9,245 nucleotides of DNA from a virus (taxonomy: Duplodnaviria; Heunggongvirae; Uroviricota; Caudoviricetes): the IMG/VR virus record IMGVR_UViG_2534681736_000017. The stretch is one strand, 5' to 3'. Below the pieces are notes generated by a model. That model did no database searches. It saw only the letters and a list, made by a program, of their open reading frames with translations, and was not told where the DNA came from. Positions 1,994 through 9,105 of the stretch are shown here, piece by piece. Position 1 is the first letter of the stretch; every line of letters begins with the position of its first letter. A program made the position numbers and the translations under genes.

Positions 1994-2989
1994 TTACGCC
2001 AGTACGCCTATTGCCAGCGCACGATCGATAAAACGAAATATCAGCTCCAGCTGGGAGCCATACTTCTCTTCAAATGCCACGGTATCCGCATGCAGCTCGT
2101 CGTGATGCTTTCTGCACAAAGGCAACACAAAGAGGTCATGCGCTTTTGTACCCATTCCTCCCTGACCGTGACCTATCAGGTGGTGGGGATCATCAGCAGG
2201 CTTTCCACAACATGCACACGGCTGTGTCTTAACCCAGCGCGTGTACTTTTCATTAACCCAGCGGCGACGTTTTGGGCGTAACATAAAAGACTCCGGCGAC
2301 TCAGGATCCACTTTCAGCGCCAGCACCTTTTTCGCTTTATCCTGGATGATGCTGGTGGCAGGAACCGAAGGCACAAGGTCACTTTCCCGGGTAACAGACG
2401 GCACAACAGGCTTCGGTAATCTAAGTGCCTTACGGGCTGCACTTTCCGGTAAGGCATCCGCCAGGTCATTACGAATCAGCCACCAGCACAGTTCCGGCAT
2501 TGTCACAACGTGACTGTCATCAAAACCGAGATCCCGACGCACAACAGACAACACCCAGCGGGCACAGTTATCCGTTGCCATTGATTCCAGCCGTTCCGTG
2601 AACTGATCGCGCAGCTGGTTATCGCAGTGCCAGCACAGACGGATTGCGCCCGGAGCGTGTCGCATTGTGGTCATGTTCTCGCTGTGCCAGTCGGAATGAG
2701 GCCACTGGCAGCCTTTTTCACGAAGTAACCAGCTTTCAAGACATTCCACGCCACCAGCACGACGGATCACTGCCTCATTGCGGAACACGGCCCGAACGGC
2801 AGGATCATCCGCCAGCGGTTGTGATGCCGCCGGAACGGCACCACTGGCGAAAGATGAATAACGTTCCGGCTCAGGCTCCAGCAGGACACGCCCCTGCATA
2901 AACAGGGGCATCAGCTCTGAACCTGGCCTGAACAATACGATCCCCATACGCGGGGCAATTTCAGGAGTCAGTAGTGCTCTCACGGTCAC
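1994..2989 (-). CDS. DUF968-like protein with C-terminal HNH-like zinc-binding motif (YdfU-like), 331 aa
   Basis: C-terminal region CACCGKPADDPHHLIGHGQGG...LPLCRKHHDELH (about nt 2090-2218) has a C-x-C-C ... HH ... C ... HH pattern typical of HNH-like modules in lambdoid nin regions. GTG start at 2989 lies one nt after the KilA-N stop (TGAgGTG). Confidence 0.7.
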   Translation of the reverse strand: MTVRALLTPEIAPRMGIVLFRPGSELMPLFMQGRVLLEPEPERYSSFASGAVPAASQPLADDPAVRAVFRNEAVIRRAGGVECLESWLLREKGCQWPHSDWHSENMTTMRHAPGAIRLCWHCDNQLRDQFTERLESMATDNCARWVLSVVRRDLGFDDSHVVTMPELCWWLIRNDLADALPESAARKALRLPKPVVPSVTRESDLVPSVPATSIIQDKAKKVLALKVDPESPESFMLRPKRRRWVNEKYTRWVKTQPCACCGKPADDPHHLIGHGQGGMGTKAHDLFVLPLCRKHHDELHADTVAFEEKYGSQLELIFRFIDRALAIGVLA

Positions 2990-2990
2990 C

Positions 2991-3800
2991 TCAATGAACG
3001 GTATCGAGCAGCTTTAACAGCTCAGGGAATCGGGATTCGAAGAAATGCGGCTGCGTCTCGCGCGGATTTGCGGGACTGGTGATGTTCTTGCCGAACATGC
3101 AGCCTTTCGCTGTCAGCGACCAGAATTTTTTGATGTTGTTAATCGCAGTGCGGCTGTATCGTTCACGTTGTTCAACGATCCCCAGCTTCGCCATCTGGTG
3201 ATATGCCTGATTAGCTGTCAGGCGGATACCATACTGCTTCAGCAGTGCACTCAATGATAGCGTGGGGCGGCTTGAGCCATCAGGCGCGTCAGCAGGAGCA
3301 TCAATGGCATAGCGCGGTGCCAGATTCGGTAAGCCAACAGCCTCCTGGAGTTTCTGACAGGCACCAAGCACTGAAGAGTTAGACAGGTTTAACTCCCGGC
3401 GCATAAAGTCCAGCAGGATCACGCCAGCCTGCATCTTGTCAGCAGCCTGTCCGGATAATTTTTCCGGTGCGCTGGTTACCATATCGAAAGTACGGATCAC
3501 CTTCAGATGGAATGACGGGCTGATCCACATTGCATAGGCATACACCAGTTCCTTGCAGACATACGTTCCCCGTTCATTTCCCCCATGAATCACACTCACC
3601 GGGTCAACACCCAAATTCTGGGTGTTGGTCAATTCATGAACAAGCTCAACAGTTTGTTGGCTGGAAAGAAACTTTCCCGGCTCCTTGGTTCTGGCATTTG
3701 CACCAGATGCTACTGCTGCGCGATGCAGATCGTTCAGGCTGTAACGCCCATAAGCATCACGACGAACTTCAATACCATCAATGACCATCAGATTATTCAT
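2991..3800 (-). CDS. KilA-N domain protein (putative antirepressor or regulatory protein), 269 aa
   Basis: The N-terminal 110 aa carry the KilA-N-type pattern (GRYSLNDLHRAA ... GTYVCKELVYAYAMWISPSFHLKVIRTFD). SD GAGGAG lies upstream of the ATG at 3800. The C-terminal half is unassigned. Confidence 0.7.
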   Translation of the reverse strand: MNNLMVIDGIEVRRDAYGRYSLNDLHRAAVASGANARTKEPGKFLSSQQTVELVHELTNTQNLGVDPVSVIHGGNERGTYVCKELVYAYAMWISPSFHLKVIRTFDMVTSAPEKLSGQAADKMQAGVILLDFMRRELNLSNSSVLGACQKLQEAVGLPNLAPRYAIDAPADAPDGSSRPTLSLSALLKQYGIRLTANQAYHQMAKLGIVEQRERYSRTAINNIKKFWSLTAKGCMFGKNITSPANPRETQPHFFESRFPELLKLLDTVH

Positions 3801-3819: not shown

Positions 3820-4209
3820 TCAGGCGGCTGCACCCGCCGTTTTCTCGTACTTACTGATAGTGATCTCGACCTTCCCTTCCGGGATAACCGGTCCCCACTC
3901 CACCAGCATTCTTTTCACCTGACTGTCGTCTTCCCACACACCCGCGTGGGTCAGGGCGTCAAACAGCGCCTTGTTATAGTTGTCCAGATCGCGGATCCGG
4001 TTATCCGGAGGAAACAACACGATCTCCACTGAAGCAGGTGCCGACGTTGGTTTCGGCAGACGACGTAACTGCTCAACTATTGCTGCGCACGCCGCGCTCT
4101 GGAATTTTCGCCCCGCCGCGCTTATCAGGCTCTTACCAGCAAACGCCCCTTTGTTGGGGTGTCGCCAGTACGTGTTCACGCTGGGCGGAAAAGGCAGGAT
4201 CAGCTTCAT
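3820..4209 (-). CDS. rusA: RusA-family Holliday junction resolvase (129 aa)
   Basis: LPFPPSVNTYWRH near the N-terminus plus the acidic motifs RDLDNYNKALFDALTHAGVWEDDSQV match RusA by recollection. The start ATG overlaps the upstream stop (ATGA). Confidence 0.85.
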   Translation of the reverse strand: MKLILPFPPSVNTYWRHPNKGAFAGKSLISAAGRKFQSAACAAIVEQLRRLPKPTSAPASVEIVLFPPDNRIRDLDNYNKALFDALTHAGVWEDDSQVKRMLVEWGPVIPEGKVEITISKYEKTAGAAA

Positions 4210-4532
4210 ACTTTCAGGTCCCTCTCATGTAACCAGTGGGTTGCACGCAGCCTTGCGTTTTCCTCACCGGCAAGCAGTGCGCGGATAATCCCGACCGCCT
4301 CGCTGTCGTCGTCCTTCACCGCGATATGAAGCGTTATCCCCCGGGCCACGCCACGCTTTATCGTGATGACGCCTTTTTTCTCCAGTGCGCGAAGATGCTC
4401 CACCGCTGCATTCACTGAACGGTATCCCAGCATGGTTGCCACCTCCTGATTGGTTGGCGGGAAGCCACGTTCTTTCTGATAAGAAATCAGCATATCCAGC
4501 ACCTGCTGCTGGCATTGAGTTAACGTCGTCAT
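4206..4532 (-). CDS. LexA DNA-binding-domain-only protein (108 aa), lacking the S24 peptidase domain
   Basis: Residues 3-70 (LTQCQQQVLDMLISYQKERGFPPTNQEVATMLGYRSVNAAVEHLRALEKKGVITIKRGVARGITL) align position by position with the E. coli LexA N-terminal winged-helix domain as I recall it (LTARQQEVFDLI...[36 protein letters not shown]...SRGIRL). Only about 35 residues follow, with no Ser/Lys dyad. ATGA overlaps at both ends. Confidence 0.8.
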   Translation of the reverse strand: MTTLTQCQQQVLDMLISYQKERGFPPTNQEVATMLGYRSVNAAVEHLRALEKKGVITIKRGVARGITLHIAVKDDDSEAVGIIRALLAGEENARLRATHWLHERDLKV

Positions 4533-5672: not shown

Positions 5673-6614
5673 TCACCCCCTGAATCCTGCCGGGATCTGG
5701 CTGTAGTCCACGTTGTCGTAACTGGCTTTGAAGTACGGGTCCTCGCGTTTTTCGGTGTACGTGCTGACGGACGGCGATAAGCGCAGGGAAAGCTCATCCC
5801 ATTTTTCCCGCAGCTTCGACGGGCTGAGCACGTTACGGCACCAGAACGGATCGCGACTGACGCGGCTGTACATCTCGCAGATTTGTTTATGAGTACGACC
5901 ATCCTGCACACACATCAGGCGAATTTCGTTTGCCCAGGCTGTCCAGTTCGGTTCTTTGGGACGAACCACCTCGCCGTCACATTCGGCGGCATGCTCGTAC
6001 AGGGCGATGATTTTTTTCCAGAGCCACTGTGCACAGGTCAAATCATCCTGCGTCCCCCACTGGCGCTTTTTAGGGCTGAATACAACCGCATCAGGATGGC
6101 GAGTTAAAAAATCCTGTTCATCCGTCTGCGTGTCCGGTTGCGAAGCGTCCGGACGAGAAGGTTTTTTATCTGACGGATCATGTTTTGATTTTACTGACGG
6201 ATCCCCGCCAGATTCTGACGGGTGAAAACCCGCTTTTTTGCCAGATTTCGACGCATCAAATTTTGACGGGTCAGATTTTGATGCGTCAGATTTTGACGGG
6301 TCAGAATCTGACAGTTGAGAAAATGCCGCTGCCTGAAGCTTCGCAACGTTAAGCTGATAAACATTCGACGCATTGCGGTTACCCTGGCGACGCGCCTTAC
6401 GCGTTAACCAGCCTTCTGCTTCCAGCCGTGCGATAGCCGTTCTGACGGTGCTCATCCCCGCGCCAATCTGGCGGGCAATGGTTTCAATTGATGGCCAGCA
6501 CACACCTTCGTCATTACTGAAATCAGCCAGGCGGGCCATAATTGCCACGCTGGATAACTTCATGCCTGACGCAGCGCAACCATCCCATACATAGCCGGTT
6601 AATTTAGTGCTCAT
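5673..6614 (-). CDS. Replication initiator (O-like): N-terminal wHTH, repeat-encoded acidic/Ser-rich linker, C-terminal domain; 313 aa
   Basis: N-terminus (CWPSIETIARQIGAGMSTVRTAIARLEAEGWLTRK) is a winged-HTH of the kind seen in phage replication initiators. The central linker DPSKSDASKSDPSKFDASKS is encoded by tandem DNA iterons. SD GAGG with 6-nt spacing precedes the ATG at 6614. Confidence 0.7.
   Translation of the reverse strand: MSTKLTGYVWDGCAASGMKLSSVAIMARLADFSNDEGVCWPSIETIARQIGAGMSTVRTAIARLEAEGWLTRKARRQGNRNASNVYQLNVAKLQAAAFSQLSDSDPSKSDASKSDPSKFDASKSGKKAGFHPSESGGDPSVKSKHDPSDKKPSRPDASQPDTQTDEQDFLTRHPDAVVFSPKKRQWGTQDDLTCAQWLWKKIIALYEHAAECDGEVVRPKEPNWTAWANEIRLMCVQDGRTHKQICEMYSRVSRDPFWCRNVLSPSKLREKWDELSLRLSPSVSTYTEKREDPYFKASYDNVDYSQIPAGFRG
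6164..6313. repeat. Iteron array (about eight copies of roughly GATTYTGACGGRTCA), putative phage replication origin inside the initiator gene
   Basis: Copies begin near 6164, 6187, 6209, 6242, 6258, 6272, 6287 and 6303. The last four are contiguous at 15-bp period, for example AGATTTTGATGCGTCA, AGATTTTGACGGGTCA, GAATCTGACAG. This is analogous to the lambda ori iterons within gene O. Confidence 0.65.
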
Positions 6615-6623
6615 GACCGACCT

Positions 6624-6962
6624 CTATTTCCCTGAATTTACGACGAAACTGTTCGAGCGGGCTGAAGCACTCATGCTCATAGCCTTCGCGGAGGTAGATA
6701 ACCCGTTGTGTTTCCGGTTCCCAACGAATGACTCTGACGGGCACTCCGTAGTGATCTTTGAACCAGCGGTTAACTTGTCGCAAAGGACTGTCTCCTTTTG
6801 CCTGTTGAAATCACCCACAGCCCACTCTGCAAAGCTGTGGGTTACAATTTCCCTGTCACCTGGTACATTCACTGCATAGCAATACTCCACCTTCGCTTTT
6901 CCACCCGGTACAGGAAGTGCAATCAGTTGCGAGCGACGGTAGTGTGTTGTTAAACTGTTCAT
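6624..6962 (-). CDS. Hypothetical protein (112 aa) between the CII-like and replication genes
   Basis: Start ATG overlaps the CII-like stop (ATGA), and its stop sits immediately before the SD of the replication gene, which fits the coupled operon. No family recognised and the composition is unconvincing. A competing plus-strand ORF (6607-6879) exists. Confidence 0.4.
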
Positions 6963-7510
6963 GCGTTAGTTTCTCCACAGTCACGACACGCCACGGCGCC
7001 CGGAGCTGCACACTCGCGGGCGTCATTACTTTCTGAAATGCAAAAAATTTTGTAGACCAGTGCTGCATGCTCCTGCAGCTTCGAAATTGAGAGGTACAGC
7101 TCGTCGTTAATTGCTGTCTTCTCATGCGGTTCCACTACACCGTCTTCAATTGCTGAACGAATCTGTTTTGAATAACTGCCGATCTGTTCAATGACCTCCA
7201 GCAGGCGTTGGTTGATATCGGCGTTGTCCACATCCTCGACATCAGGAAGAGACACAAAGACGCCATTTGCAGACTGCGCCACAGCGTCAGCAATGAAGTG
7301 AGTTCCACCAGCACGTTGCAAAATCATTGCCCATCCCAGCGGGAAAATCTGATCGCCATCGGCACGAAGGCGGTTAAATAATGCGTTCTCTGTTACATCC
7401 AGCCAGTCAGCAGCTTCAGCGTACCCCCCCGGCAACGCTGCGATAGTTTTTCTGACAGCTTTCACGTACCACTCAGGCTGTTTTTCTACTTTCCAGTGAT
7501 GCTTACCCAC
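6959..7510 (-). CDS. CII-like phage regulatory protein (186-type CII family-like), 183 aa, GTG start
   Basis: [37 protein letters not shown] resembles the phage 186 CII segment (NKLNPEQPHQFTPPELWLL...LVDGFLAQ) by recollection. GTG at 7510 is preceded by AGGAGGT with 6-nt spacing and overlaps the Cro-like gene end. Confidence 0.55.
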
Positions 7511-7763
7511 GGTTCACCTCCTGTTCCTGTGGTTTAAACCCATTCTGGTTTTGGCTAGATTGAAAACGTGCCGGATAAAGAATCTGCATTTCGCTGACTT
7601 CACCCTTAAAAAAATTGGCTAAACGTTCTGCAAGCTCGATAGATGGAATCTGCTCCAGCCTCTCAATACGACTCAACGTCGCTGGATTGACTTGAACACC
7701 CGCAGCAACATGCTGCAAAGTGAAACCATGCGCCTTACGCACATTTCGTAATGGTGATTGCAT
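7503..7763 (-). CDS. Cro-like HTH (XRE-type) DNA-binding protein, 86 aa
   Basis: HTH segment FTLQHVAAGVQVNPATLSRIE. SD GGAGG lies 6 nt upstream of the ATG. It is the first gene of the rightward operon, divergent from the cI-like repressor. Confidence 0.75.
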   Translation of the reverse strand: MQSPLRNVRKAHGFTLQHVAAGVQVNPATLSRIERLEQIPSIELAERLANFFKGEVSEMQILYPARFQSSQNQNGFKPQEQEVNRG

Positions 7764-7860
7764 ACGCCCTCCAAATATTGCGCGTTATGCATGTTATTTC
7801 ACGCAATTATTTTGCGCAAGTTGATTTGCTTATCACGCAATAAAGAAATGTAATAAACGC
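7764..7860. promoter_or_regulatory. Divergent immunity control region (PR-like and PRM-like promoters with repeated operator half-sites)
   Basis: Four copies of a 7-mer CACGCAA or its complement: TTGCGCG 7778-7784, CACGCAA 7800-7806, TTGCGCA 7812-7818, CACGCAA 7834-7840. They include a 19-bp palindrome CACGCAA-TTATT-TTGCGCA (7800-7818). Candidate PR on the minus strand: -35 TTGCGC, 17-bp spacer, -10 TAACAT. Candidate PRM on the plus strand: TTGATT (7821-7826) with an AT-rich -10 near 7849-7856. Confidence 0.6.
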
Positions 7861-8553
7861 ATGAACATAGGAAACCGAGTCAGACAACTTCGCCAAGCGA
7901 AGAACATGAAAATCGCCGATCTCGCTGAAGCGATAGGAGTAGATGCGGCGAACATCTCGCGCTTAGAAACGGGTAAGCAAAAACAATTTACCGAACAAAC
8001 ACTGAGTAATATTGCCAAGAGCTTAGGTGTTGATATTGCTGATCTCTTTACCTCTGCCCACAAAAGTAATACTGTATATAAAAACAGTAATAATGAGGAT
8101 GTTGCGCAGGTGAAGGATGTGTTCCGTATTGAAATGCTGGATATCAGTGCCAGTGCGGGAAATGGCCTTATCCAGGGCGGTGATGTCATTGATGTGATTC
8201 ATGCCATCGAATACAGAACTGATAATGCTGTATCAATGTTCGGCGGACGACCAGCCAATCACATCAAAGTTATCAACGTTCGTGGGGACAGTATGTGTCC
8301 AACCATTGAGCCAGGAGATCTCATCTTCGTTGATGTCAGCATCAATCAGTTTGATGGTGATGGTATATATGTCTTTGGTTTTGATGACAAAATATACGTT
8401 AAAAGACTTCAAATGATTCCTGACAAACTGCTGGTGATTTCTGATAACCAGATTTACCGTGAATGGGGAATTACTAGCGAAAACGAACACCGATTCATGG
8501 TCTTTGGAAAGGTCTTAATCAGTCAGTCGCAAACCCTTAAGAGACATAATTAA
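7861..8553 (+). CDS. cI-like phage repressor (HTH_XRE N-terminal domain plus S24 LexA-like autopeptidase domain), 230 aa
   Basis: N-terminal HTH (MKIADLAEAIGVDAANISRLETGKQ). Candidate Ala-Gly cleavage site A99-G100 (SASAGNG), Ser nucleophile in RGDSMCP (S144) and Lys in YVKRL (K181). No SD before the ATG, so possibly leaderless like lambda cI. Confidence 0.9.
   Translation: MNIGNRVRQLRQAKNMKIADLAEAIGVDAANISRLETGKQKQFTEQTLSNIAKSLGVDIADLFTSAHKSNTVYKNSNNEDVAQVKDVFRIEMLDISASAGNGLIQGGDVIDVIHAIEYRTDNAVSMFGGRPANHIKVINVRGDSMCPTIEPGDLIFVDVSINQFDGDGIYVFGFDDKIYVKRLQMIPDKLLVISDNQIYREWGITSENEHRFMVFGKVLISQSQTLKRHN
8070..8089. promoter_or_regulatory. Near-consensus LexA (SOS) box inside the cI-like coding sequence
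   Basis: TACTGTATATAAAAACAGTA matches the E. coli LexA box consensus TACTGTATATATATACAGTA at 18 of 20 positions, with perfect CTGT-N8-ACAG. It is the only CTGT-N8-ACAG in the window. Function is unproven. Confidence 0.45.
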
Positions 8554-8572
8554 CCTCAATATCCCATCCATC

Positions 8573-8597
8573 GGCCACCGAAAGGTGGCTTTTTATT
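8573..8597 (+). terminator. Rho-independent terminator downstream of the cI-like gene
   Basis: Stem GCCACC (8574-8579) / GGTGGC (8584-8589) with a GAAA tetraloop, followed by TTTTTATT; 20 nt after the cI stop. Confidence 0.8.
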
Positions 8598-8829
8598 ACC
8601 TATAAATTTGCATATCTCGCAATTTAATTTTATCTTTTATTCCAGACCAACTACAGGATTACAACAAAATCTGGTTGCAACACGGTGCATGTGTCGTAAG
8701 CAGTCAGTAAATGTCAAAAACGAACAGGCAGGACGCCCACGAAGTAGCCGCCTGGGGCATATGAAGTCCAGGATGATTCGTTGAGTCATGTTGTGCCACT
8801 AGGCACTCATGTTAAAGCAGGTGTATGAA

Positions 8830-9105
8830 ATGAAAGTCCAGATTTTAAACAATAACTGTGAAGTCGTTTGGTCATACGACATAGCCGCCCCTGTAGATCA
8901 GAGCGGCGATAGCTGGACCAATGGGAAACATCAGATTATGGCTGGAGTTGTGTTCTCTTTACGCCGTGCTTTAGAACAGGCTGAAGTCTTTCCATCAGAC
9001 CCTGAATGGAAATGGCCTTTTTCTATTTGTCCAAATTCGGAGAGTACATTTCAGAAAATTGGTCAGAAAGTCGCACTCGAAGAGCATCAGCCAACTGTTT
9101 CCTGA
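8830..9105 (+). CDS. Hypothetical protein (92 aa from ATG at 8830)
   Basis: The ORF track starts at 8809, but the ATG at 8830 has an AGGTG SD with 6-nt spacing. No family recognised. An antisense reading frame through 9030-9176 also looks protein-like, so the coding strand here is uncertain. Confidence 0.35.
   Translation: MKVQILNNNCEVVWSYDIAAPVDQSGDSWTNGKHQIMAGVVFSLRRALEQAEVFPSDPEWKWPFSICPNSESTFQKIGQKVALEEHQPTVS

What the first reader, a model, noticed from the sequence alone, without database searches (positions are those of the whole stretch)
8070..8089. Near-perfect SOS box embedded in the inter-domain linker of the cI-like repressor gene
TACTGTATATAAAAACAGTA is an 18/20 match to the E. 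coli LexA operator consensus and is the only CTGT-N8-ACAG in the window. The bare pattern is expected about 0.14 times in 9.2 kb at equal base frequencies, and the matching TA flanks and all-A/T spacer make chance less likely still. It lies in the codons for residues 70-76 (the linker between the HTH and S24 domains), not in a promoter. Possible roles are a LexA-dependent roadblock or internal promoter within the repressor gene, or a target for the phage LexA-like protein (4206-4532) that would cut repressor synthesis after commitment to lysis.
Basis: partly seen in the sequence, partly recalled or inferred. Interest (0 to 1): 0.65.

Follow-up and report, generated by a model that had tools for sequence, protein, structure and literature searches.

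The report
SOS-gated short repressor inside cI
A binding site for the bacterial DNA-damage repressor LexA sits inside a prophage repressor gene. It is held constant at the DNA level in dozens of related prophages, and it most likely switches on a shortened, DNA-binding-less copy of the repressor when the cell is damaged.

Summary
TACTGTATATAAAAACAGTA lies at 8070-8089, in codons 70-77 of a cI-type repressor gene (HTH + peptidase S24) of an SfII-like lambdoid prophage. It is identical to the E. coli umuDC and sbmC LexA operators.

It is not chance. In 63 of 66 representative alleles (<95% nt identity) from many Enterobacterales genera, the CTG-N10-CAG core is kept at the same codons. The surrounding linker is the most variable part of the protein. 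Among degenerate codons, only codons 71 and 75 have an invariant third base, and both lie in the box. Codon 75 encodes seven different amino acids but always ends in C.

Three features point to an SOS-inducible promoter inside cI:
- The left arm, TACTGT, lies 17 bp downstream of TTTACC. This is the geometry of the umuDC promoter.
- A Shine-Dalgarno-like run and a GTG/ATG/TTG at codon 87 follow 20-35 nt downstream. Both are maintained by synonymous codon choice.
- Independent gene callers pick that internal start.

The best explanation is that this promoter makes a 144-147 aa protein consisting only of the C-terminal domain. Its role is inferred: a dominant-negative anti-repressor, or else a RecA* decoy. 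No transcript or protein evidence exists. I found no published description.

The parts
8070..8089 (.). SOS box (LexA operator), TACTGTATATAAAAACAGTA
   Evidence: Identical to the umuDC operator and to the umuD and sbmC sites in PMC3009722. The core is kept in 63 of 66 representative alleles. It is the most conserved 18-nt stretch of the gene.
8047..8052 (+). Predicted -35 hexamer (TTTACC) of the internal promoter
   Evidence: PWM scan. TTTACC-17-TACTGT scores 5.09, the best + strand site in the gene and above the 99th percentile of all positions (3.35). These bases also encode the conserved residues F63-T64, so their conservation is not independent evidence.
8070..8075 (+). Predicted -10 hexamer (TACTGT), the left arm of the box
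   Evidence: The umuDC promoter scored the same way gives TTGATC-17-TACTGT, 6.19. A 47-bp synthetic promoter, TTGACA-17-TACTGTATATAAAAACAGTA, is SOS-inducible (PMC9074414). The mean score at this position over 63 alleles is 4.39.
8095..8117 (+). Purine-rich leader with Shine-Dalgarno-like runs (GAGGA 8095-8099; AGGTGAAGGA 8108-8117)
   Evidence: Codon 87 (with the adjacent column 88, which shares the same upstream region) has the strongest mean upstream anti-SD pairing in the gene: -6.6 kcal/mol against a gene mean of -1.6, sd 1.7. E/K/Q codons in 81-86 end in G in 74% of cases, against 40% elsewhere.
8119..8553 (+). Nested in-frame ORF from GTG codon 87 (144 aa). The alternative start is GTG codon 84 at 8110 (147 aa). 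The product is the S24 C-terminal domain with the Ala99-Gly100 site and no HTH.
   Evidence: Codon 87 is GTG, ATG or TTG in 51 of 63 alleles. A start plus an SD of -4 kcal/mol or stronger occurs in 76%; the next best internal column reaches 29%. Gene callers produced 144-aa and 147-aa products.
7861..8553 (+). Full-length cI-type repressor gene (230 aa; HTH_3 + Peptidase_S24)
   Evidence: The product is 100% identical to Shigella phage SfII CI. A-G at residues 99-100, S144 (GDSM) and K181 (VKRL) are invariant.
8573..8590 (+). Intrinsic terminator after cI. It would also end the nested transcript.
   Evidence: Annotated as a terminator in the SfII record.
7503..7763 (-). Divergent cro-like gene. 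The intergenic region 7764-7860 holds the switch promoters and operators.
4206..4532 (-). Phage protein with only the LexA DNA-binding domain. It is a possible second ligand of the box in SfII-like phages and is not required for box conservation.

Best explanation
The 20-mer is a genuine host-LexA operator kept by selection inside the cI linker. It is the operator of an SOS-inducible promoter inside the gene, on the same strand as cI: -35 TTTACC 8047-8052, a 17-bp spacer, and -10 TACTGT 8070-8075, which is the left arm of the box.

In an undamaged lysogen, LexA occupies the box and keeps this promoter silent, while full-length CI is made from the upstream maintenance promoter. When RecA* has depleted LexA, the internal promoter fires. 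The operator is the same as that of umuDC, which is known as a tightly repressed, late SOS gene, so firing should come late.

The short mRNA would start near 8082. It has a roughly 30-nt leader with a Shine-Dalgarno sequence. Translation from GTG 8119 (or GTG 8110) to the cI stop codon gives a 144-147 aa protein. This is the S24 C-terminal (dimerisation and cleavage) domain without the DNA-binding domain.

The most likely role is subunit poisoning: mixed dimers with full-length CI carry only one HTH, so operator binding weakens and induction is reinforced. The alternative is that the protein binds RecA* and acts as a decoy or brake.

Shown here: the site, its identity to known operators, DNA-level selection on it, and conserved start and RBS signals downstream. 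Inferred: LexA binding at this copy, promoter activity, expression of the short protein, and its effect.
For: (1) Identity. The 20-mer equals the K-12 umuDC operator. It also equals the umuD and sbmC sites listed in PMC3009722.

(2) DNA-level selection.
- In 24 homologues, T71 is ACT in 24/24, S76 is AGT in 24/24 and V72 is GTA in 22/24. Other invariant T, V and S columns use 2-4 codons.
- In 20 representatives, 8071-8088 is the most conserved 18-nt stretch of the gene. ACTGT and CAGT are its two longest invariant runs.
- In 63 representatives, only four of 230 codons have an invariant third base: codons 71 and 75 in the box, plus Met145 and Trp202. Codon 75 encodes seven amino acids but is always nnC.
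- There are 47 distinct 20-mers among 154 alleles, and 44 keep CTG-N10-CAG.

(3) Promoter. TTTACC-17-TACTGT is the top-scoring + strand promoter in the gene, at 5.09. The mean at that position over 63 alleles is 4.39. No consistent minus-strand promoter appears. The real umuDC promoter has the same geometry and the same -10. A 47-bp -35 + 17 + box construct is SOS-inducible (PMC9074414).

(4) Nested start.
- Codon 87 is GTG 45, ATG 4 and TTG 2 of 63, while GTG makes up 19% of Val codons elsewhere.
- The strongest upstream anti-SD pairing in the gene lies at this position.
- E/K/Q codons just upstream end in G in 74% of cases, against 40% elsewhere.
- Of the 12 alleles without a start at codon 87, 11 have another in-frame start with a strong SD within -3 to +8 codons.
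- Gene callers chose the internal start even where the full-length frame is intact.

(5) Ligand. Eeyore has the box but no phage LexA-like gene.

(6) Loss. In the Dryocola allele L022 the core is lost, in L023 the box is degraded, and both lack a start at codon 87.
Against: - There is no transcript, start-site, protein or binding data for this locus.
- The predicted promoter is weak: 4/6 and 3/6 hexamer matches. Its -35 lies in codons for conserved residues, so it carries no independent conservation signal.
- The consensus promoter scan found nothing. It also misses the real umuDC promoter.
- mRNA structure is not relaxed around codon 87.
- Twelve of 63 alleles lack a start at codon 87. The alternatives were found by searching a 17-codon window.
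- V, L and M at position 87 are also natural hydrophobic alternatives at the protein level. Acidic and glycine codons in a linker are intrinsically SD-like.
- The sequences are related by descent, so the counts are not independent events.
- The direction of the effect (anti-repressor or brake) is not constrained by any result here.
Confidence: 0.55

Rival explanations
1. LexA roadblock. LexA bound in the linker codons partly blocks elongation of cI transcripts from the maintenance or establishment promoter. Repressor output is then damped in undamaged cells and rises when LexA is cleaved. This buffers the lysogen against weak or transient SOS signals.
For: The site is a high-affinity operator type. 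It lies about 210 bp inside the transcribed gene. DNA-level conservation fits any LexA-dependent role.
Against: It does not explain the conserved SD and start codon 20-35 nt downstream, or the umuDC-like -35/-10 geometry on the + strand. Truncated, stop-less NTD transcripts would be wasteful. The regulatory sign, more repressor during SOS, runs against the usual phage logic. That last point is inference.
Confidence: 0.12
2. The nested C-terminal protein is made as proposed, but it acts as a brake. It binds RecA* filaments or serves as a competing substrate. This slows CI (and LexA) cleavage, so only sustained damage induces the prophage.
For: The evidence for the box, promoter and nested ORF is the same as for the best explanation. 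A monomeric lambda CI C-terminal fragment binds RecA* (PMC6363387, abstract seen). Phage 434 makes a second product from the cI mRNA, Hex, that inhibits RecA-stimulated repressor cleavage (PMC3564112). The nested product keeps the Ala-Gly site and the Ser/Lys dyad.
Against: A brake that is expressed only late, from a umuDC-type tight operator, would act after much CI has already been cleaved. Known LexA-controlled phage functions mostly promote induction (PMC3121763, listed). Nothing here tests the direction of the effect.
Confidence: 0.2
3. The box is mainly the target of the phage's own non-cleavable LexA-DBD protein (4206-4532). This protein would shut the site, and host SOS genes, during lytic growth.
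For: The protein is 43% identical to LexA 1-86, with the recognition helix (RS-NAA-EHL) kept. It belongs to a phage 'transcriptional repressor' family, phrog_362. It is co-resident in SfII-like genomes.
Against: Eeyore has the cI box but no homologue of this gene. The box is kept across many genera with different neighbouring modules. Binding by a DBD-only protein is untested.
Confidence: 0.08
4. There is no regulatory role. The conserved island reflects a protein motif (T-V-x-x-x-S), a recombination junction between domain modules, or an antisense promoter.
For: T71, V72 and S76 are nearly invariant residues. Lambdoid genomes are mosaics. The palindrome reads the same on both strands.
Against: Synonymous sites are frozen: ACT, GTA and AGT only. 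Codon 75 varies in amino acid but never in its third base. The conserved bases are exactly the LexA half-sites, and the site equals two known operators. No consistent minus-strand promoter exists, and the region where its -35 would fall is hypervariable. Eighteen bp is short for homologous exchange; that last point is inference.
Confidence: 0.05

Closest known systems
E. coli umuDC (and sbmC) SOS operator-promoter
   Same: The 20-bp operator is identical. The geometry is the same: a -35, then 17 bp, then TACTGT as the -10. The downstream product is also an S24-fold protein of about 140 aa with an N-terminal cleavable arm. The nested product is 36% identical to UmuD over 83 residues, E = 5e-8.
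   Different: Here the unit lies inside, and in frame with, a larger repressor gene. There is no umuC partner. The -35 is weaker. The proposed function is control of prophage immunity, not translesion synthesis.
LexA-controlled phage anti-repressors (186 Tum; Gifsy GfoA/GfhA, PMC3121763; P22-like Ant)
   Same: Host LexA gates a phage factor that acts on the prophage repressor, so induction is coupled to LexA cleavage.
   Different: Those are separate small genes elsewhere in the genome, unrelated to the repressor. They typically serve repressors that do not self-cleave. Here the candidate factor is the repressor's own C-terminal domain, nested in cI, and the repressor keeps an intact Ala-Gly/Ser/Lys cleavage apparatus.
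Tn5 transposase/inhibitor (Tnp/Inh) type nested in-frame truncated regulators
   Same: An N-terminally truncated protein lacking the DNA-binding end is made from its own promoter and start inside the larger gene, and it can form inactive mixed oligomers. This mechanism for Tn5 is from established knowledge and was not tested here.
   Different: It is a different protein family. In Tn5, LexA acts on the full-length promoter. Here the predicted operator sits on the short form's promoter.
Phage 434 Hex (PMC3564112)
   Same: A second product is encoded partly within or overlapping a cI gene, and it modulates RecA-dependent repressor inactivation.
   Different: Hex is read from the maintenance-promoter mRNA in another reading frame at the 3' end of cI. 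It is not LexA-controlled and is not a repressor domain.
Lambda/P22/434-type self-cleaving CI repressors
   Same: The domain architecture, cleavage motifs, divergent cro and terminator all match.
   Different: No intragenic SOS box or nested start is described for those repressors. That statement rests on my knowledge and on literature searches that found nothing. The more distant relatives checked here, Turner-type cI and e14 YmfK, lack the box.

Membership tests
Gammaproteobacterial LexA operator (SOS box) | 16-bp palindrome CTGT-N8-ACAG with an A/T-rich spacer and TA flanks | tested here: met
   18/20 match to the consensus, with an all-A/T spacer.
Gammaproteobacterial LexA operator (SOS box) | Sequence equals or closely matches an experimentally validated operator | tested here: met
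   Identical to the K-12 umuDC operator and to the umuD and sbmC sites in PMC3009722 Table 4.
Gammaproteobacterial LexA operator (SOS box) | Purifying selection on the half-sites across orthologous loci | tested here: met
   The core is kept in 63 of 66 representatives. Third bases of codons 71 and 75 are invariant. ACTGT and CAGT are the longest invariant runs.
Gammaproteobacterial LexA operator (SOS box) | Overlaps a promoter (-35/-10/start site) of the regulated gene | tested here: inconclusive
   There is a umuDC-like TTTACC-17-TACTGT arrangement with a high PWM score, conserved in position. The promoter is weak, and there is no start-site data.
Gammaproteobacterial LexA operator (SOS box) | LexA binds it, and the downstream gene is induced in a recA/lexA-dependent way | not testable with these tools
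   Needs EMSA or ChIP and expression assays.
CI/LexA-type self-cleaving repressor | N-terminal HTH plus C-terminal peptidase S24 domain | tested here: met
   HTH_3 at residues 7-62 (E = 1.2e-11). Peptidase_S24 at residues 104-218 (E = 6e-19).
CI/LexA-type self-cleaving repressor | Ala-Gly cleavage site and Ser/Lys catalytic dyad | tested here: met
   A99-G100, S144 (GDSM) and K181 (VKRL) are invariant in the alignment. Assigning these residues as the cleavage site and dyad is by analogy to LexA.
CI/LexA-type self-cleaving repressor | Immunity-region context (divergent cro, cII-like gene, terminator) | tested here: met
LexA-controlled anti-repressor module (Tum/Ant/GfoA type) | SOS box at the promoter of the anti-repressor gene | tested here: inconclusive
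   The box is present and promoter-like. Promoter activity is untested.
LexA-controlled anti-repressor module (Tum/Ant/GfoA type) | A separate gene encoding a small protein unrelated to the repressor | tested here: not met
   The candidate product is in frame with cI and identical to its residues 84/87-230.
LexA-controlled anti-repressor module (Tum/Ant/GfoA type) | The product binds and inactivates the cognate repressor | not testable with these tools
   Needs pull-down, immunity and induction assays.
Nested in-frame N-terminally truncated isoform | Conserved internal start codon with a ribosome-binding site, beyond what the protein sequence requires | tested here: met
   Codon 87 is a start codon in 51 of 63. 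Start plus SD occurs in 76%, against 29% or less elsewhere. G-ending codon bias is 74% against 40%. Gene callers choose it.
Nested in-frame N-terminally truncated isoform | The short protein is detected | not testable with these tools
   Needs a western blot, N-terminal proteomics or initiation-site ribosome profiling.
UmuD family | Stand-alone S24 protein with a cleavable N-terminal arm under a LexA operator | tested here: inconclusive
   The architecture and operator match, and identity to UmuD is 36% over 83 aa. But the protein is not a stand-alone gene.
UmuD family | Adjacent umuC-type polymerase gene | tested here: not met
   A terminator follows directly at 8573-8590. No polymerase gene is present in the window.

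The most novel reading that the evidence does not exclude
Many enterobacterial prophages, including those in about one in five complete E. coli genomes, carry a two-key induction switch within a single gene. RecA* cleaves the CI repressor. Separately, LexA depletion turns on a promoter hidden in the cI linker. That promoter makes the repressor's own C-terminal domain, which poisons the remaining CI dimers. The repressor gene would thus encode its own SOS-gated anti-repressor.
Probability: 0.4. Interest if true: 0.85.

Novelty: new variant of a known kind. Interest (0 to 1): 0.72.

Why it matters
Prophage induction by DNA damage is usually described in one of two ways. Either the repressor cleaves itself (lambda), or LexA controls a separate anti-repressor (186, Gifsy). 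This locus appears to combine both within one gene.

It shows that a transcription-factor site, a promoter, a ribosome-binding site and a start codon can all be written into a protein linker and held there by selection.

The allele family is common. It is present in 1040 of 5426 complete E. coli genomes. It also occurs in Shigella serotype-converting phage SfII, in Stx2a-converting phages, and in prophages of Salmonella, Klebsiella, Citrobacter, Pantoea, Serratia and Proteus. It could therefore affect how antibiotics that trigger SOS mobilise toxin and serotype-conversion genes.

It is directly testable. Two or three synonymous mutations would remove the box or the internal start without changing CI.

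Tried and rejected
- **Consensus promoter scan of 7500-8700.** It found no sites. I rejected this as evidence because the same scan also misses the real umuDC promoter.
- **Minus-strand (antisense) promoter.** The PWM scan shows no position with consistent scores, and the region where its -35 would fall is hypervariable.
- **Relaxed mRNA structure around codon 87.** No signal: -6.7 kcal/mol against a gene mean of -6.85.
- **Independent conservation of the -35.** F63 is TTT in 19 of 20, but other Phe columns are similar, so this is uninformative.
- **e14 YmfK as a relative that might link to K-12 LexA data.** It shares only the S24 core and has no box.
- **Widening the box-less outgroup with a Turner-type cI query.** The scan returned 80 identical sequences, so it was wasted. 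The outgroup comparison rests on three sequences.
- **Repeat search for CI operators around the gene.** Nothing clear.
- **Rfam.** No family in the window.
- **Literature.** Seven searches, including the literal 20-mer, found no report of an SOS box or nested product in a cI gene. The library lacks most subscription journals, so absence is weak evidence.
- **Structure prediction and fold search.** Not run. They would only have confirmed the S24 fold.
Full report
**1. The observation**

The window is the early and immunity region of an SfII-like lambdoid prophage. It is 97.6% identical in nucleotides to Shigella phage SfII across the switch, and about 91% identical to mEp460, PhiR47_1 and several Stx2a-converting phages.

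ORF 7861-8553 (+) encodes a 230-aa repressor with an HTH_3 domain (residues 7-62) and a Peptidase_S24 domain (residues 104-218). Its product is 100% identical to SfII CI. A cro-like gene (7503-7763) diverges from it, followed by a YmfL/CII-like gene.

TACTGTATATAAAAACAGTA lies at 8070-8089. It is the only site in the window within three mismatches of the LexA consensus, and none of 200 shuffles gave such a site. It is also the only exact CTGT-N8-ACAG; shuffles give a mean of 0.15.

The 20-mer is identical to the operator upstream of umuD in E. coli K-12. PMC3009722 Table 4 lists the same 20 bases for both umuD and sbmC.

**2. Is it selected?**

I collected homologous repressor genes from four sources:
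- annotated phages;
- one genome per species: Shigella, Citrobacter, Kluyvera, Pseudescherichia, Klebsiella, Trabulsiella, Pantoea, Buttiauxella, Mixta, Rosenbergiella, Dryocola, Proteus, Serratia and Phaseolibacter;
- viral contigs;
- a further set from metagenome assemblies, inspected separately for section 3.

The first three sources gave 154 unique alleles and 66 representatives below 95% nucleotide identity.

The protein segment between the HTH and the S24 domain is hypervariable, with amino-acid entropy of 2-3.5 bits per column. Yet the codons ACT GTA TAT/TGT AAA/AAT/ATA nnC AGT recur at the same place. The CTG-N10-CAG core is present at the homologous site in 63 of the 66 representatives.

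Controls within the same alignment:
- Other invariant Thr, Val and Ser columns use two to four codons each. T71 is ACT in 24/24 and S76 is AGT in 24/24.
- Among all 230 codons, only four have an invariant third base across the 63 box-bearing representatives: codons 71 and 75 in the box, plus Met145 and Trp202, which have no synonymous alternative.
- Codon 75 encodes N, H, D, Y, S, T or P, but always ends in C, the C of CAG.
- In the 20-representative set, 8071-8088 is the most conserved 18-nt stretch of the whole gene. The two longest invariant nucleotide runs are ACTGT and CAGT.
- The spacer drifts. There are 47 different 20-mers, and 44 keep the core.

This is the signature of a DNA-binding-site constraint, not a protein motif. 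The sequences are related by descent, so these counts are not independent events. The saturation of synonymous sites everywhere else in the gene is the relevant control.

**3. What is around it**

*Promoter.* I scored sigma-70 promoters with a simple position-weight matrix. The best + strand site in the whole gene is TTTACC (8047-8052), 17 bp, TACTGT (8070-8075). It scores 5.09, against a 99th percentile of 3.35 for all positions. Across the 63 representatives this is the only position near the box with a consistently high score (mean 4.39; 68% above 4). The minus strand shows nothing consistent.

The real umuDC promoter scored the same way gives TTGATC-17-TACTGT (6.19). That is the same -10, formed by the left arm of the box. 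A published 47-bp construct, TTGACA-17-TACTGTATATAAAAACAGTA, works as an SOS-inducible promoter (PMC9074414).

The session's consensus scan found no promoter here. It also fails on umuDC.

*Start codon and ribosome-binding site.*
- Codon 87 (GTG, 8119-8121) is GTG, ATG or TTG in 51 of 63 representatives. GTG makes up only 19% of Val codons elsewhere in the gene.
- The 15 nt upstream of codon 87 have the strongest mean pairing to the anti-Shine-Dalgarno sequence of any position in the gene (together with the adjacent column 88, which shares the same region): -6.6 kcal/mol against a gene mean of -1.6, sd 1.7.
- The amino acids there are hypervariable. Examples are AGGAGccaaacactATG, GGAGAGGGtgaccctGTG and CAAGGGGGGgatGTG.
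- E/K/Q codons in positions 81-86 end in G in 74% of cases. The figure is 40% in the rest of the gene and 34-35% in the other parts of the linker.
- A start codon together with an SD of -4 kcal/mol or stronger occurs at column 87 in 76% of representatives. The next best internal column reaches 29%.
- Eleven of the twelve alleles without a start at 87 have another in-frame start with a strong SD within -3 to +8 codons. This includes GTG84 in the common 93%-identity E. coli allele.
- In the window itself both GTG84 (8110, preceded by GAGGA) and GTG87 (8119, preceded by AGGTGA) are present.

*Independent gene callers.* A protein search returned 144-aa entries starting exactly at codon 87 (P0059, P0078, P0093) and a 147-aa E. 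coli entry starting at codon 84 (P0001, 231 member sequences). In three metagenome contigs the 144-aa gene was called even though the full-length frame, with its HTH, is intact upstream. This shows the strength of the signal, not expression.

*Other signals.* The full-length ATG has no obvious Shine-Dalgarno sequence, which may explain the callers' choice. A strong terminator follows the shared stop codon. mRNA structure is not relaxed around codon 87; that test was neutral.

**4. Who binds**

The phage encodes a 108-aa protein (4206-4532, -) that is 43% identical to LexA residues 1-86. It keeps the recognition-helix residues and even an LLAGE stretch aligned to the LexA cleavage site, but it lacks the protease domain.

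It could bind the box. However, phage Eeyore keeps the box in its cI (67% identical protein) and has no such gene. The box is also conserved in prophages whose other modules differ. Host LexA is therefore the common ligand. In SfII the cI box is the only strong SOS box in the genome.

**5. Mechanism proposed**

The box is the operator of an SOS-inducible promoter inside cI. With LexA bound, only full-length CI is made. When LexA is depleted, a short mRNA starts inside the box. It is translated from codon 87 (or 84) to the cI stop codon, giving the S24 C-terminal domain alone. This product keeps the Ala99-Gly100 site, Ser144 and Lys181.

That architecture is the one UmuD has. The nested product is 36% identical to UmuD over 83 residues and sits behind the same operator. 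Because umuDC is known as a tightly repressed, late SOS gene, I infer late expression here too.

The direction of the effect is not determined by any result here.
- I favour subunit poisoning. C-terminal domains mediate dimerisation in this family, and mixed dimers would carry a single HTH. From memory, overproduced P22 c2 C-terminal fragment has this negative-dominant effect. Trans-cleavage of CI is also possible.
- The alternative is a RecA* decoy or brake. Supporting examples are the RecA*-binding lambda CI C-terminal fragment (PMC6363387, seen) and 434 Hex (PMC3564112).

**6. Rivals**

- A pure roadblock does not account for the promoter geometry or the downstream translation signals.
- The phage LexA-like protein as sole ligand is contradicted by Eeyore.
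- A protein-motif, recombination-junction or antisense-promoter explanation is contradicted by the frozen synonymous sites, the exact match to known operators, and the lack of a minus-strand promoter.

**7. Comparison and novelty**

The closest known systems each differ in a defining respect:
- the umuDC operator-promoter: same operator and geometry, but a different context;
- LexA-controlled anti-repressors: same logic, but separate and unrelated genes, usually serving non-cleavable repressors;
- Tn5 Tnp/Inh: a nested truncated inhibitor, but a different family and a different target for LexA;
- 434 Hex: a second product from cI, but in another frame and without LexA control.

The SfII record annotates neither the box nor a nested product. 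Seven literature searches, including the literal 20-mer, found no description. I rate it a new variant of a known kind.

**8. Verdict**

- The box is real and under DNA-level selection: confidence about 0.9.
- It gates an internal promoter for a C-terminal-domain-only repressor: about 0.55.
- That product acts as an anti-repressor: about 0.4 overall.

No expression or binding data exist. The decisive experiments are simple, because synonymous mutations can remove the box or the internal start without changing CI.

Noticed in passing
window 4206-4532 (-): A 108-aa protein made only of a LexA DNA-binding domain. It is 43% identical to E. coli LexA 1-86, with the recognition helix kept and an LLAGE stretch aligned to the LexA cleavage site, but no protease domain. 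It would be a non-cleavable LexA mimic expressed from the early right operon. It belongs to phrog_362 and is annotated in SfII only as 'LexA DNA binding domain protein'.
   Followed up: partly
window 6624-6962 (-): A 112-aa ORF that is 97% identical to e14 YmfM, annotated in K-12 as a cell division inhibitor. It lies directly downstream of the YmfL/CII-like gene (6959-7510), so this prophage carries the e14-type ymfL-ymfM pair next to a different repressor.
   Followed up: partly
window 6242-6305: Four to five tandem copies of a 15-bp unit (CAGATTTTGACGGGT) inside the O-like replication gene 5673-6614 (-). They encode the repetitive DPSKSDASKS stretch and are probably origin iterons.
   Followed up: no
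window 7835-7863: The full-length cI ATG (7861) has no recognisable Shine-Dalgarno sequence upstream (gaaatgtaataaacgcATG). This suggests a leaderless or weakly initiated maintenance transcript, and it may explain why gene callers prefer the internal start.
   Followed up: no
L326-L328 (ENA metagenome contigs), gene at 2501-2935 / 841-1275: A 144-aa 'Peptidase_S24' gene was called from codon 87 even though the HTH-encoding frame upstream is intact. These contigs carry the identical 20-mer box, although the C-terminal domain is only about 76% identical to the window's.
   Followed up: yes
L022 and L023 (Dryocola clanedunensis), codons 70-87 of the cI homologue: In these alleles the box is degraded (core lost in TGCGGTGCAAAAGCCAGGGG; G/C-rich spacer in CGCTGTGCAAAAGCACAGCG). 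Codon 87 is also GGT or GGA, not a start codon. This may be a joint loss of operator and nested start.
   Followed up: partly
L244 (phage Eeyore) 3131, 3939, 20325: Three further strong SOS boxes lie outside cI. The box at 3131 lies within the dinI-like gene (2811-3293), the box at 3939 lies between the UmuD-like gene (3455-3733) and the integrase gene, and the box at 20325 lies at the 5' end of a DNA methyltransferase gene (20317-21369). This phage therefore has several LexA-controlled units. SfII has only the cI box.
   Followed up: no
PHROG phrog_6201 and phrog_35195 (hits to window 7861-8553): One PHROG family consists of 121-aa 'CI-like repressor' proteins that match only residues 111-226. 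Another, of 159 aa, matches only residues 1-150. So split or truncated versions of this repressor are annotated in phage genomes.
   Followed up: no
window 8809-9105 (+): A 98-aa ORF downstream of the cI terminator, in the position of the early left operon. It matches only a PHROG of unknown function (phrog_3195) and has no Pfam domain.
   Followed up: no
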